Shown here: positions 31,500 to 37,663 of the stretch, piece after piece
Layout of the letters: the number at the start of each line of letters is the position of its first letter
Position numbering within the stretch: the stretch's first letter is position 1
Assembly: GCF_006345805.1 (NCBI RefSeq)
Contig: NC_043000.1
Coordinates: 22,940,001 to 23,004,000, forward strand
Origin: Octopus sinensis
Taxonomy: Eukaryota
Reading direction: 5' to 3'
DNA length: 64,000 nucleotides
Program-made: the position numbers and the translations under genes
The notes under the pieces: model-generated
What the model saw: the letters and a program-made list of their open reading frames with translations, nothing else
Database searches by the model: none
Told to the model about the DNA's origin: nothing

Positions 31500-31990
31500 A
31501 CAACCGTATCACAAAGTCTCGTTTCGGTCGCTCCACAAGCGTGCTTTAATATATCGAGTGTGCGAGATCTCGAGCAGAAAACATGGAGTTCATTTTTAAA
31601 TAGTTCTTTTTTTAGTTTTATACCTTTTTAAATTATACATAATTCATCATCGATGTGTTAAGCATGTTTTGAATAAAATTCGACGTAAAATTAAATATCG
31701 ATGTTAATCCAAGTAGTTCCGTCCCTGTAAAGTCTCGTTTTCGTCACGTGATCTACCTTTCTACATCACCCGTCAAGATGAGAGCCCGTGGTCAGGTAAC
31801 CTCCTCGAAAAATATTTCTTTCCTTCATTATTTCCTACGTTTCCCACTTTAAATATACTTTTAATGGAACAATCGCAGATTAATTAACCGCTTCAGCCCA
31901 TCTATTGTACAGTAAATATTGTGAAGATGACCTATTAGCGATAAATTCCTTGGTTTTCTCGCGGTTCCTTCATCAAAATGGCGCTGTAGC
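31500..31990 (+). promoter_or_regulatory. RPL18A core promoter region (probably shared bidirectionally with XPOT)
   Basis: CpG-rich. TCT/5'TOP-like CCTTTCT at 31756-31762, ~20 nt before the ATG; E-box GTCACGTGA 31743-31751; DRE-like TATCGAT 31696-31702; AAAGTCTCGTTT twice (31513, 31729); YY1-like CAAAATGGCG 31974-31983 in intron 1. Confidence 0.65.
31778..31795 (+). CDS. RPL18A: RPL18A coding exon 1
   Basis: ATG AGA GCC CGT GGT CAG|gtaac, preceded by a pyrimidine-rich TCT-like start. Confidence 0.9.
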
Positions 31991-34900
31991 CACATGGCAG
32001 AATGGTTCCAAATATTCAGAAGCAAAAATGTATATTTGTGAGAAATGCTGTGGGGTATTCGTTCCCAAACCTATTCATTAGTCTTACGTGTTTTATTTTT
32101 TATTTAACTATAGCCTTGCTGTTGTTAATGTACAATTAACTATATTTTCTATCGGTCGTTTTCCCTACGCACATGTCCCTTTACTCAGCAGTTTAAAAAT
32201 ATTGTTGATGTCAGAAAAATTGTGCTACAATAAATTCAACCTGGTCGTTTCACTCTTAAGTTAACAAATTTACGGGATTGAATTAGGTTGATACACCCAC
32301 GAAGAAAATTGGTTTTGTTTTATGCCCTATTTGTGAAGATTGTAATTTACGGTTCTTTATTTTTTTTTCCTTATTACAGTTGAACGAATATAAAATAATC
32401 GGGCGAGAATTACCGACAGAGAAATGTCCGATTCCACCCCTGTTTCAGATGAGAATATTTGCATCTGAACCATGCAGTGCTAAGTCAAGATTTTGGTATT
32501 TTGCCAGTCAACTTAGGAAATTAAAGAAGAGCAGAGGAGAAATTGTTTGTTGCCACAAGGTAAGTCTGCAAAAGAAGCAGAAATGTCAATCGCTTTAAAT
32601 TCGTTGCACATGGGGAGATGAAGTAAAAGAAAATTTATTGGTGCTCTTCCGTTTGGAAAGTTTTGACAAAATCTGCTTAACGCTCGTCACTACCTCGAGG
32701 GGAAGGAAAGGGACAAGAAACTGAGTGGTTGTTTCTTTATATAGTCATTTCTGTCCCAAAACTTTTACATTGTTTTTTCCTCTACCTCTTCAATTCTATG
32801 CTTCCCACACACCTCACCCCAATAAATTTTGTTACTATTTACACCCGTCTCACTAGGCGGGTATAACAGAATAACATGCTAAATATTGAAAATGTTTCTT
32901 ACTGATTAAACTTGTGTATACAAATTGTAAGTTTACGACATTTTAAGATGCACTATACTGTGTATAATGACTACTACACGCCTTCCAATTTTTTTTTTAT
33001 CCTCTAATCTTTCGACCACTATTTATAGCTGTATTTTTTAATAGATTTAATATTGGTGCTGCTGAGATACGTTTTTGTCGTTTCCTTAATACCAGCAGTT
33101 CATAAAGCAAAGTTATTTTCTCGCGGGGGATTCTTCATGGACAAAGGCTTAACACAGTGTTAAGGTTTTTAGGGACCTCTGTATTTGAGTAATACCCAAA
33201 GAAAGATAGCGTGTTGATCATTTTAATTCAGTGATAAATGGAAGTGGTGTAATTTCGAAAAGATGGAGTGTGATAACATGAAATCCTGAGACAACGAAAT
33301 GTACAATTGACTATATTTTCTATCGGTCGTTTTCCCTACGCACATGTCCCTTTACTCAACAGTTAAAATATATTGTTGATGTCAGAAAAATTGTGCTACA
33401 ATAACTTCAACCTGGTCGTTTCATTCTTAAGTTAACGTATTTCGGGATTGAATTAAGTTGATACACCCACGAAGAAAAGTGGTTTTGTTTTATGCCCTGA
33501 ACATTTGGGTGACTCAAGCTTTTTACACCATCATGAGTAAAAACGTGATGTATTAAATTATGGGCTCCCTTAGGTTTGCAGTTTCACTGTTTTTCATACT
33601 GACGGCTTTCCATTGTAGCATATGCACATACCCTTAAACTCGGCAATTTATTGTTTTTGAAGTGTTCCAGGATTATGGGGTTGAATACAATTGTCTAGTA
33701 CTTTTCCCTTCCATCAGTCTTCGTAGTCACACACCCTGCTAGAAATAGCAGCGCAAATCACTTTTCCCCATATAATATCACATGAATTTGTAGAGATGTG
33801 ATTGAGATAATTGTATTGAAACTGGATAAAGTTAAAACATTCAGGTAATAATGGTGTTTATGTGTTATGTACTTAAGAGACTTGTGAGATCCCTTACTTG
33901 AAAGACAGTGGTTAGTGTCAGGAAGGACATCTGACTGTAAAGCAAAGCCAGAATAACAATCATCTAATCCATGCTGGTGTAGTGAAGTGGATATAGGATG
34001 AGCAAAAACAGGCGATTCAGATGTTGGACTAAAGTTATCTCAATGTCAGTGTTCAATTAACACTTAACTAAGCTGGTTAATTCATTTGCTTAAATATATC
34101 TTTCTACATTTACACACATGAATAGTCATGCCTATTAGCCTTAATCAATGACCCTGTCCATTGCCTATTGGGTGGGAAACCAGCATTCTGAAAGTGTTCA
34201 AAAACTTTAGTTTTGTGGTCGTTGTCCAGTTTTGAATTTAATTTTCTCTGAATTCTAATTTGATATTGGTAAATACTCTGGTTCTGAACATGCTAGTCAC
34301 TAATCTTATCAAAGTCCAGTGACATGATGCGTGTTCAATGTTATTGTAAGAAATGGTAGGTCTGATAGCAAGGGTGGGGAATTTGTAGTCATTTGAGCTT
34401 TAGAAGAACTGTCTGACAGTATTTGTTTTTGCTCTTTACATTCTGAAGTCGACTTTGCCTTTCATCTCTCTTGTTTAAGTACTAGTGGTGATATAGTTGA
34501 CCGGCGCCCTCCCCTCAAAATTCCTGGCCTTGAGCCTGATTGAAACAAGTATTAGAAAGGGTATATGGACTTCCACTAACTTTTTGGTTCCATAGGAATA
34601 TCTGACTCACTATACGTTTGTAGCTCTCAGTAGGTAAGATGATATTTTGGTGATTGATGTCTGTTAGATGACAATTTGATTATTAAATGTCTTAATATTT
34701 TGTATTAAAATTTATTTTCTAATTTATTGTTAGATTTTTGAAAGAAAACCTGGGACCATAAAGAATTATGGCATCTGGCTTCGTTATCAATCTCGAAGTG
34801 GAATCCACAACATGTACAAAGAATACCGTGATCTCACTGCTGCTGGAGCTGTGACTCAGTGCTGTAAGTATATATATATATAGATATTCCAGAAAGTTTA

Positions 34901-37663
34901 GAAGTAACTAATAAAAGAAGGCCTGAAGCCAACACCCACACCAGCTTGAATTCAATATCTTCGAAAAATAATTCACTATGTCACTGGATAAGCCAAATAA
35001 ATTTTTTAAAAATGCTGTAACTAGAAAAATGAATTTCTCAGTGAGCAACAACTGCAAAATATTAAAGTCACCTTCAATCTTGTGGATGGGATTCATGCAC
35101 TCTAACCGTTTACATGGGGATTTCTTTATATTTCCCTATGTCAGAAATGTGTGCAATAGTAATATAGCTGTTCTATTTTGGTCACTGGTGTAGACCAAGA
35201 GGGTTAATGGCTATGACATAGTTTTTCTATTATCTGTGAATGTTTCAATGGCAAGCTGGCAGAAACGTTGGCACGTCGGGCGAAATGTGTAGCTGTATTT
35301 CGTCTGTCGATACGTTCCGGGGTCAACTTTGCCTTTCATCCTTTCGGGGTCGATGTAGTAGACTTAGTCCCTTTGTTTGTCCCCTCTGTGTTTAGCTCCT
35401 TGTGGGCAATAAAGAAATATATATGTGTGTGTGTGTGTGTTTTTAGTTGGTTTGTGCTCTGGAGAAATATCAGTGACTTTGCAGTTTTGTGCACTATTCA
35501 ATATTTGTTTTCGATAAATTTTGTACTTATCCATATCTTGATCAGAGTGTGAAGAGTGAAAAATGGCTATAAGTTTTGGCTTGTCTACCTAGGAGCAGGG
35601 TAGGATTGTACCATCCTGGTCTAAGGATCTAGTCAGTTAATTTACCCTTTGCCTAGCCTATTTCCTTTAATAACACATTGCTTTTCTTCATAGCTATTCT
35701 GAAGTTTGTCTTGAATGTAATGCAAATATTTTCTTTGCTAATTGTTTCTGTCCTGATGGTGTTCGAGAATTGTTTTCAATTGGTCAGTGAACACCAGTCC
35801 ATTTTGTGTGTACCTTACATACAAGCTCTTTCTTCCTTGTGTTTGATACTGTTGTTATGGCTTAAATATTCCTCAACTCCGTCTTTTCCTGGTCATTTTA
35901 AGTAGTATTTCTTGATAGCAACTTGGTTGGTGCTCTCTCTTTCTGTAGTAAATATTTTCTATTTAAAGTTACCTGAATAACTTTGCATCAAAATTCAAAC
36001 AAGGGCAGTGCAGTTCAACAGAAATATAGTTACAGCTTGATATTCAGTTAATTACCTCTTAGTTATATCTGTTAAGAAACAGCTGTAGTGAAGAGTAGTT
36101 GCTGTTGTAGTATTCTTTAGTATAATAAGCATGTTTTCTGTGCTGGTATGTTGAAAGTGGTTTGGTCTTTCTTGCTTTTCAAAGGTGACTTCAATATTTT
36201 GCAGTTGTTGCTCACTTAGGAATTCATTTTTCTAGTTACAGCAATTTTTAATTTATTTAGCTTATCCAATGACTAATGAGGTTGAAGATAGCGAATTATT
36301 TTTCGAAGATATTGAATTCAAGCTGGTGTGGGTGTTGGCTTCAGGCCTTCCTTTATTAGTTACTTCTAAACTTTCTGGAATGTGTATTCTACAATAAATT
36401 TAATATTGACTACCTTTGTACATATATTTACATACATATACACACACACACACGCCTGTTATGACCCCATTTTGAAGAATTGTTTTAGTGTTAGTTTTTG
36501 CAAATGTTTCAACAGGATAATTCTTGCTATTAGTGTTGTCTCTGTCCTGTCACTAAATTTGTGAATTACTGCATGAAAGTTTTTCTCCAGCATTGCAAGT
36601 ACTTTGGTTGATGTTCTTTTTTTTTTAATTTAGGATCTTGTGGATGGGATTCATGCACTCTAACCGTTTACATGGGGATTTCTTTATATTTCCTTGTGTC
36701 AGAAATGTGTGCAATAGTAATATAGCTGTTCTATTTTGGTCACTGGTGTAGACCAAGAGGGTTAATGGCTATGACATTGTTTTTCTATTATCTGTGAATG
36801 TCTCAACTGGAGGTGCGGCACCTTCCAGTGACTGGTTACTTGTGTTTCATTCAGTTTATCACTATGCTTCTGTTCCTTACTCTGGGGTCTAGTCACCACC
36901 ATTTTTGCTTCTATAACAAAACACCTGACATAAGACTACCTTTCTTCCTCTCAAACACTTTCCTGTTCAGTTGAGGAAATTTTTTGTCGTGCATGTTAGT
37001 GACCTTGCCAGTGTCACAAAACGAAAAAGAGCACAGCATGGTTGGCAATGTGAAAGACATCCAGCCATAAAATCCATCCTAGCTTGCAAAGTGGATATCA
37101 AAAAGCTGATTTTCTGAAACAGTTGTAGAATTCATGATACTTAGTCTGAAAAGTGTTAAATGCATTGATTTCCCAATGTTAGTCAAACAAAGAGGGATTT
37201 TGGTTGATCTGTTTTGAAGATTACAGCTCGTATATTTCTTCTATTTATTGAAATTAAATCATGATTTATTTCTGCCTTTAGACCGTGATATGGGAGCTAG
37301 GCATCGTGCCAGGCCTTCAGCTATCCAAATCATTAGAGTGGAAACTGTGCCAGCCAAGAAATGCAGAAGAGCTTACATTAAGCAGTTCCATGTAAGTGAA
37401 ATTCGATTATTTATTTTGGTGGTGGGATGCATTCTAATCATTTGTTGGATGTGATATTTCTGTCTCAGAAGTGTGTGTGTGTAATCTACTTCAGCCTTTT
37501 GTGAGGATCTAGAGAATGAATAAATGGTTGTGGCAGCGCTTGACTTTTATGTTTGTCTTTTCTTTTGCAGAATGCCAAAATCCGCTTCCCATTGCCTCAT
37601 CGCGTGGAAAGGAACTTACAAAATCCTAAATTCACTACTAGGAGACCATACACCAATTTCTAA
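31778..37663 (+). CDS. RPL18A: 60S ribosomal protein L18a (eL20), complete, 5 coding exons, 176 aa
   Basis: Exons 31778-31795, 32380-32559, 34734-34863, 37282-37391, 37571-37663 = 531 nt. Peptide [15 protein letters not shown]...AKSRFWYF...[24 protein letters not shown]...[11 protein letters not shown]...[15 protein letters not shown]...RPYTNF*. Confidence 0.98.
32167..32298 (+). ncRNA. Box H/ACA snoRNA candidate, family 1 copy A (RPL18A intron 1)
   Basis: Hairpin GCAC...GTGC, H box ACAATA (32227-32232), hairpin TCAACCTGGT...ATTAGGTTGA, ACA (32293-32295) + 3 nt. About 132 nt, ending ~80 nt upstream of the 3' splice site. Confidence 0.8.
32380..32559 (+). CDS. RPL18A: RPL18A coding exon 2
   Basis: [15 protein letters not shown]...[12 protein letters not shown]; 180 nt. 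Confidence 0.97.
33338..33468 (+). ncRNA. Box H/ACA snoRNA candidate, family 1 copy B (RPL18A intron 2)
   Basis: Near-identical to 32167-32298; H box 33398-33403, ACA 33463-33465. Confidence 0.75.
34734..34863 (+). CDS. RPL18A: RPL18A coding exon 3
   Basis: [43 protein letters not shown]; 130 nt. Confidence 0.97.
34885..36381. repeat. Inverted repeat pair in RPL18A intron 3 (34885-35075 vs 36182-36381)
   Basis: ATTCCAGAAAGTTTAGAAGTAACTAATAAA...AAGTCACCTT is the reverse complement of AAGGTGACTT...TTTATTAGTTACTTCTAAACTTTCTGGAAT, with scattered mismatches and one ~13-nt indel. Confidence 0.9.
35095..35221 (+). ncRNA. Box H/ACA snoRNA candidate, family 2 copy A (RPL18A intron 3)
   Basis: Hairpin TGCAC..ACATGGGGA/TCCCTATGT..GTGCA, H box ATAGTA (35156-35161), hairpin ATAGCTGT..TTTTGGTC/GACCAAGA..ATGGCTAT, ACA (35216-35218). 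Confidence 0.8.
36653..36779 (+). ncRNA. Box H/ACA snoRNA candidate, family 2 copy B (RPL18A intron 3)
   Basis: Near-identical to 35095-35221; H box 36714-36719, ACA 36774-36776; both stem substitutions give G-U pairs. Confidence 0.8.
37282..37391 (+). CDS. RPL18A: RPL18A coding exon 4
   Basis: (Y)[36 protein letters not shown]; 110 nt. Confidence 0.97.
37571..37663 (+). CDS. RPL18A: RPL18A coding exon 5
   Basis: [30 protein letters not shown]; AATAAA 30 nt downstream. Confidence 0.96.
   Translation, partial: NAKIRFPLPHRVERNLQNPKFTTRRPYTNF

What the first reader, a model, noticed from the sequence alone, without database searches (positions are those of the whole stretch)
32127..33498. Duplicated intronic H/ACA snoRNA in RPL18A introns 1 and 2, predicted to guide the 18S site equivalent to human Psi1445
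Seen: a ~200-bp segment occurs at 32127-32328 and 33298-33498. Its core folds as hairpin - H box (ACAATA) - hairpin - ACA+3 nt. One upper-stem difference (TCAGCAGT vs TCAACAGT, opposite ATTGTTGA) swaps G-U for A-U. The 5' pocket strands are TGTCCCTT and AGAA, the latter starting 14 nt before the H box. Knowledge: these pair with the conserved 18S sequence AACUUCU-U-A-GAGGGACA, placing the target at the U that I recall is Psi1445 in human (guided by SNORA67/U67). Vertebrate RPL18A hosts SNORA68 instead. Inference: a lineage-specific guide that changed host gene and duplicated in cis. The 3' pocket (CGTTT / TTGAATT) may target 28S AAUUCAA-U-N-AAGCG, with weaker support.
Basis: partly seen in the sequence, partly recalled or inferred. 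Interest (0 to 1): 0.75.

Follow-up and report, generated by a model that had tools for sequence, protein, structure and literature searches.

The report
Octopus two-site ribosomal guide RNA, duplicated
Two recent copies of a predicted small guide RNA sit in introns of an octopus ribosomal-protein gene and are predicted to mark the same two small-subunit rRNA uridines that the frog guide SNORA67 is predicted to mark, so this is likely an ordinary, old guide that hints the two-site form predates vertebrates.

Summary
The duplication is real: 202 bp, 94.6% identical, only two copies in the genome, in introns 1 and 2 of RPL18A. Both copies have box H/ACA anatomy. The 3' pocket's best uridine is instead the 18S position of human Psi1347 (yeast Psi1290). 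A published table, read after that scan, assigns exactly this pair to Xenopus SNORA67. The element is therefore likely an SNORA67-like dual guide rather than a lineage-specific one. Orthology is inferred from targets alone: Rfam SNORA67 does not match and the host differs (EIF4A1 in human). Each pocket alone is only borderline against shuffles (35 and 25 of 600). Expression and modification are untested, and copy 2 has a weakened 3' hairpin. The scan's index holds no look-alike; it noted other cis-duplicated H/ACA RNAs in this genome. A second duplicated H/ACA-like RNA lies in intron 3.

The parts
31778..31795 (+). RPL18A (eL20) coding part of exon 1
   Evidence: five exons give a 176-aa frame with one terminal stop
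32380..32559 (+). RPL18A exon 2
   Evidence: 59 of 60 residues as PDB 9EHO chain S; junction to exon 3 in runs X4, X1, X16
34734..34863 (+). RPL18A exon 3
37282..37391 (+). RPL18A exon 4
37571..37663 (+). RPL18A exon 5 to stop codon
32127..32328 (+). Duplicated segment, copy 1 (intron 1, 31796-32379)
33298..33498 (+). Duplicated segment, copy 2 (intron 2, 32560-34733)
32167..32298 (+). Predicted H/ACA RNA A1, about 132 nt (ends inferred)
   Evidence: fold
32174..32181 (+). A1 5' pocket, left strand: 8 pairs (6 Watson-Crick, 2 G.U) with 18S downstream of the uridine equal to human 1445
32213..32216 (+). A1 5' pocket, right strand: 4 Watson-Crick pairs with 18S; starts 14 nt before the H box
32227..32232 (+). 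A1 H box (ANANNA)
32243..32253 (+). A1 3' pocket, left strand: 11 pairs (8 Watson-Crick, 3 G.U) with 18S downstream of the uridine equal to human 1347
32277..32281 (+). A1 3' pocket, right strand: 5 pairs (3 Watson-Crick, 2 G.U); starts 16 nt before ACA
32293..32295 (+). A1 ACA box; 84 nt upstream of the 3' splice site
33338..33468 (+). Predicted H/ACA RNA A2; 5' pocket identical to A1 (33345-33352, 33384-33387), H box 33398-33403, 3' pocket 33414-33424 and 33447-33451, ACA 33463-33465; 3' hairpin weakened

Best explanation
Introns 1 and 2 of RPL18A each carry a copy of a predicted box H/ACA snoRNA that likely guides pseudouridylation of two 18S rRNA uridines, those equal to human 1445 (5' pocket) and human 1347 (3' pocket). 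Shown: the two copies, their intronic place, boxes, spacing, fold and complementarity to this genome's own 18S. From established H/ACA biology (recalled): the RNA would be released from the spliced intron by exonuclease trimming, bound by dyskerin, NOP10, NHP2 and GAR1, and each pocket would hold pre-18S so that the unpaired U sits 14-16 nt from the box. Inferred: it is the counterpart, probably the ortholog, of the two-site SNORA67 described in frog; the second copy arose by a recent duplication within the gene; copy 1 is the better-preserved one and copy 2 is losing its 3' hairpin.
For: 5' pocket: best of all uridines and of all bases in the rRNA set, score 27 against 23 for the next site. 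3' pocket: best uridine scores 32 against 22 for the next rRNA uridine, with both antisense strands abutting the upper stem. Both uridines map to human pseudouridines by landmarks: 10 nt after the ac4C1337 cytidine and 45 nt before Gm1490, and by the printed human-frog alignment. A shuffled pocket picks the same uridine as best site in 17 of 500 (5') and 5 of 500 (3') trials. The table row assigning both sites to Xenopus SNORA67 was read after the scan. In chicken the 1445-type site is listed for a 5' pocket and the 1347-type site for a 3' pocket, the same order as here. Of 11 differences between copies none touches a box or the 5' pocket, and one in the 3' pocket keeps pairing as U.G.
Against: Each pocket alone is borderline: shuffled strands reach the observed score somewhere in the rRNA in 35 of 600 (5') and 25 of 600 (3') trials. 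No Rfam family reaches its cut-off in the window, and SNORA67 and SNORA4 are not among the weak hits on either copy. The 3' model needs 5 G.U pairs of 16 and the longest usual spacing (16 nt). With any base allowed at the apex, non-uridine sites score 31. The copies are not more alike inside the RNA (9 differences in 132 nt) than in its flanks (2 in 70 nt), so the duplication is no evidence of selection. No distant ortholog was obtained, so there is no covariation. The frog assignment is itself a base-pairing prediction; SNORA67 is not among the activities listed as tested.
Confidence: 0.7

Rival explanations
1. Real H/ACA RNA whose 5' pocket guides the 1445-type site, but whose 3' hairpin descends from an SNORA31-type domain for the 28S site equal to human 3713 and is now without a substrate because that base became C.
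For: A weak Rfam alignment (13.2 bits, cut-off 40, E 4.3) lays the 3' hairpin on the SNORA31 3' half with similar pocket strands. The pocket pairs 7+5 with that 28S site, with only one G.U (score 26). The site is a pseudouridine in human and frog. U-to-C change alongside loss of modification is described in vertebrates.
Against: No uridine at the site in 27 of 27 genomic matches, so nothing would maintain the match. Score 26 is near the shuffle mean of 24.8. The 18S uridine scores higher and completes a published target pair.
Confidence: 0.12
2. Both 18S targets are right, but the pairing of the two domains arose independently of vertebrate SNORA67 by domain shuffling or point mutation.
For: No sequence similarity to Rfam SNORA67 and a different host gene. 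Antisense elements move between unrelated snoRNAs in vertebrates. In chicken the 1445-type element is listed in an RNA hosted by DKC1.
Against: The same two sites, probably in the same order, out of roughly a hundred rRNA pseudouridines is an unlikely coincidence (inference).
Confidence: 0.2
3. The 3' pocket acts, alone or as well, on U6 snRNA U86.
For: Best snRNA hit, 3+8 pairs, score 25, in this genome's U6; U6-86 is a known vertebrate pseudouridine.
Against: Only 3 pairs on one arm; the score equals the shuffle mean; lower than the 18S site. U1, U4 and U5 were not scanned.
Confidence: 0.07
4. A duplicated stretch of intron with no RNA product; boxes and pockets are chance.
For: A loose 5'-pocket-plus-H-box pattern occurs 5,399 times in the genome against 5,087 for its control, and the two left strands together 25 times against 68, so the motifs alone prove nothing. 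No Rfam match at cut-off.
Against: Fold z -2.73, correct box spacing in both hairpins, two best hits on known pseudouridine positions that form a published pair, and a host class that typically carries snoRNAs.
Confidence: 0.08

Closest known systems
Xenopus tropicalis SNORA67 (Deryusheva, Talhouarne and Gall, PMC6984369, supplementary table row seen)
   Same: One H/ACA RNA predicted to guide both xt18S-U1403 (human 1445) and xt18S-U1309 (human 1347).
   Different: Host region is next to SNORA48 (EIF4A1 in human), not RPL18A; single copy in the table; sequence not compared here because it was not available to the tools.
Human SNORA67/U67 (Rfam RF00272)
   Same: Guides 18S Psi1445; intronic H/ACA RNA.
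   Different: Hosted by EIF4A1; assigned only the 1445 site; the Rfam model does not detect the octopus RNA.
SNORA4/ACA4 (RF00394), yeast snR83, Drosophila snopsi18S-1377 (RF00543)
   Same: SNORA4 guides 18S Psi1347, from a 3' pocket in chicken, with snR83 as yeast counterpart. That the fly RNA targets the same site is recalled.
   Different: SNORA4 lacks the 1445 element (its frog 5' partner is 28S-U3451); neither Rfam model reports a match in this genome.
SNORA68/U68
   Same: H/ACA RNA in RPL18A introns in human; two copies in frog.
   Different: Its 28S target (human 4393) is C in this genome (4 of 5 copies read this way, the fifth has a 2-nt insertion and also no U); the pocket scores only 21 there.
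snoRNA cis-duplication in vertebrates (Shao et al., PMC2653536, section 13 read)
   Same: Paralogs in neighbouring introns of one host gene.
   Different: None of kind; this is a routine example.

Membership tests
Box H/ACA snoRNA | Hairpin-hinge-hairpin-tail fold of about 130 nt | tested here: met
   Free fold of copy 1, z -2.73; copy 2 weaker, z -1.53
Box H/ACA snoRNA | H box (ANANNA) in the hinge and ACA after the second hairpin | tested here: met
   both copies
Box H/ACA snoRNA | Bipartite pocket placing a target U 14-16 nt from the box | tested here: met
   14 nt (5') and 16 nt (3'); shuffle controls borderline
Box H/ACA snoRNA | Stable RNA ending 3 nt after ACA, bound by dyskerin, with guide activity | not testable with these tools
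   Only assembled contigs were available
SNORA67 (RF00272) | Score above the Rfam cut-off of 45 bits | tested here: not met
   No SNORA67 hit at E up to 10 on either copy; the genome search reports only an unrelated 26.5-bit place
SNORA67 (RF00272) | 5' pocket for 18S U1445 | tested here: met
   (prediction only)
SNORA67, frog form | Second element for 18S U1347 | tested here: met
   (prediction only)
SNORA67 (RF00272) | Host gene EIF4A1 | tested here: not met
   Host is RPL18A; the eIF4A introns of this genome were not examined
SNORA68 | Pocket for a uridine at 28S 4393 | tested here: not met
   Base is C here; score 21
SNORA31 | 3' pocket for a uridine at 28S 3713 and Rfam score above 40 bits | tested here: not met
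   C in 27 of 27; 13.2 bits

The most novel reading that the evidence does not exclude
The octopus RNA is the true ortholog of SNORA67 and keeps the ancestral bilaterian state, one RNA guiding both 18S Psi1445 and Psi1347. Vertebrate SNORA67 (in EIF4A1) and SNORA4 (in EIF4A2) would then be duplicates that divided these two jobs, with frog SNORA67 keeping both. That gives a direction to a case published only as 'antisense element shuffling', and shows a guide conserved in targets across the protostome-deuterostome split while invisible to Rfam.
Probability: 0.45. Interest if true: 0.5.

Novelty: new member of a known kind. Interest (0 to 1): 0.33.

Why it matters
My paper searches found no cephalopod or mollusc H/ACA guide annotation, and Rfam misses this RNA, so it adds two concrete pseudouridine predictions for a ribosome that now has a cryo-EM model (PDB 9EHO). 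Its value beyond annotation is as an outgroup: if the target pair is inherited, the two-site SNORA67 is older than vertebrates and the mammalian split between SNORA67 and SNORA4 is derived. It also shows that octopus 28S has C at two positions that are pseudouridines in vertebrates, so guides predicted from vertebrate rRNA mislead here. No new mechanism is involved.

Tried and rejected
Rfam at cut-off on the whole window: none; weak scans of the gene and of each copy gave only sub-threshold H/ACA hits. Genome searches with SNORA67, SNORA4 and snopsi18S-1377 models did not report this locus and score only 40-52 candidates each, so they do not show absence elsewhere. SNORA68 orthology, suggested by the shared host, was rejected. 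A pattern for the vertebrate form of that 28S site found nothing. Orthologs from other animals: a metagenome scan with exon 2 gave only 2 short loci at 62% identity, not examined further. Sequencing runs: no RNA holder listed on record; holders are four coded organisms. In run X16 (RNA only guessed) one 194-nt contig of depth 4.8 spans 32104-32297 with no difference and stops 1 nt short of the predicted 3' end; a single contig cannot show an end, so I do not count it. None of the four runs showed cover beyond 33358 in copy 2, which is not evidence either. Organism D differs too little and covers too little to test conservation: no change in 32259-32298 or 33298-33358, 13 substitutions in 905 nt of intron 2. 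Loose genome patterns for other guides with these pockets were at or below their controls; the 23 other matches were not folded. Pfam on exon 2 alone gave no family. The octopus ribosome preprint has no occurrence of 'pseudouridin' or 'snoRNA' in its main text; its supplement was not seen. Figures of the Xenopus paper, including the drawn base-pairing, were not visible.

Full report
Observation. A search of the 2.7-Gb genome returns only these two places, so this is not a dispersed repeat. It is not an assembly artefact either: in run X8 one contig with no difference runs from 32204 to 33339, from copy 1 into copy 2, and contigs of X8 and X13 break at matching places in both copies. The host is RPL18A: exon 2 is 59 of 60 residues identical to chain S of PDB 9EHO, an octopus ribosome model (passages seen); five exons give a 176-aa frame; three junctions appear in run X4. 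Copy 1 lies in intron 1 and copy 2 in intron 2.

Anatomy. Positions 32167-32298 fold freely into hairpin, hinge, hairpin and tail, with an H box at 32227 and ACA at 32293. The fold is more stable than 298 of 300 dinucleotide shuffles for copy 1 and 274 of 300 for copy 2; with rougher ends the signal was weak. Rfam finds nothing at cut-off. On copy 1 alone the four best weak hits are all H/ACA families, far below their cut-offs; on copy 2 there is none.

Targets. I took 18S, 5.8S and 28S from rDNA copies of the same genome. The 28S came in two parts because the copies are interrupted by insertions, so a short stretch may be missing. Every uridine (1,412) was scored against each pocket. It lies 45 nt before the guanosine equal to human Gm1490 and matches Psi1445 in the printed human-frog alignment, where it is modified in the vertebrates listed and unmodified in yeast.

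The 3' pocket. The best uridine is in 18S, 5+11 pairs at 16 nt from ACA, score 32 against 22 for the next rRNA uridine. It lies 10 nt after the cytidine equal to human ac4C1337, which makes it Psi1347, modified in the vertebrates listed and in yeast. The site is intact in 13 of 17 matches among the fetched loci, which overlap in part.

How strong this is. Alone, each pocket is borderline: 35 and 25 of 600 shuffles reach the score at some uridine. The weight comes from which sites were hit. A shuffled pocket picks the same uridine in 17 and 5 of 500 trials. After the scan I read the supplementary table of Deryusheva et al. (PMC6984369; discussion part 1, passages and supplement parts 1-3 read, figures not visible): Xenopus SNORA67 is assigned 18S-U1403 and 18S-U1309, the second noted as human Psi1347, which SNORA4 modifies in mammals. 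In chicken (PMC2653536, passages and section 13) the 1445-type site is listed for a 5' pocket and the 1347-type site for a 3' pocket. The order of the frog domains is inferred from table order, and the frog assignment is a prediction.

The duplication. Nine of 11 differences fall inside the 132-nt RNA and two in 70 nt of flank, so the likeness of the copies reflects recent origin, not selection. None hits a box or the 5' pocket. Copy 2 loses a C-G pair in the lower 3' stem and one base in the upper stem; with the pocket held open its 3' hairpin is worth -0.4 kcal/mol against -7.7 for copy 1. Copy 2 may be decaying in that half (inference). Cis duplication is the usual route of snoRNA expansion in chicken, and earlier, unchecked notes of this scan describe it in RPL35A of this genome.

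Mechanism. Most likely a standard intronic guide: spliced out with the intron, trimmed, loaded with the four H/ACA proteins, and used on pre-18S at the two uridines. These steps follow from known H/ACA biology (recalled) and are untested here. I put a real H/ACA RNA at about 0.9, the 5' target at 0.85, the 3' target at 0.7-0.75, and descent from the same ancestor as SNORA67 at about 0.55-0.6.

Works like versus member of. It works like frog SNORA67 by predicted targets. It fails the Rfam score and the host-gene test, so I do not file it in RF00272. Human SNORA67 lies in EIF4A1 and chicken SNORA4 in EIF4A2, which suggests that the two are duplicates that divided an ancestral two-site guide; this is a hypothesis that I could not test, as no vertebrate or other mollusc sequence was available.

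Verdict. A credible, unannotated member of a known class. Searches for prior reports in cephalopods, molluscs or invertebrates found none, within a library that lacks most subscription papers. Interest 0.33.

Noticed in passing
window 35095-35221 and 36653-36779 (intron 3): A second duplicated H/ACA-like RNA (B): 172 bp, 97.7% identical, two copies in the genome, fold z -2.9 and -2.3. Its 5' pocket pairs 4+7, all Watson-Crick, with a 28S uridine equal to human 4180, which is unmodified in human and frog; a G.U-rich site ties in score and 83 of 600 shuffles do as well. No convincing target for the 3' pocket in rRNA, U2 or U6.
   Followed up: partly
window about 37413-37553 (intron 4): A full-length diverged paralog of B (alignment score 94, 0 of 500 shuffles) that has lost the H box and ACA and has no good target: likely a dead copy.
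   Followed up: partly
window 32167-32232 against 35095-35161: The 5' hairpins of A and B resemble each other (whole-RNA score 62, 6 of 500 shuffles), with a shared 10-nt stretch at the right pocket strand. B could be a retargeted paralog of A, but generic H/ACA features are not controlled for.
   Followed up: partly
window 34880-35074 and 36182-36387: Inverted duplicate, 87% identical over 209 nt, directly upstream of B copy 1 and 250 nt upstream of B copy 2; it could pair in the pre-mRNA across B copy 1.
   Followed up: no
G000 rDNA, loci L016, L021-L030, L033: 28S has C at two positions that are pseudouridines in vertebrates (human 3713 and 4393); many 28S copies are interrupted just after helix 69, as by R2-type insertions.
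   Followed up: partly
L017, L018, L030: 18S is about 2,640 nt and 64% G+C; ITS1 holds three tandem copies of a unit of roughly 300 nt.
   Followed up: no
window about 35250-35410: High-copy repeat (SINE-like) in intron 3, with very high contig depth in all four runs.
   Followed up: no
window 31975-31985: A YY1-like motif (label recalled) in intron 1, as is common in ribosomal-protein genes; seen.
   Followed up: no
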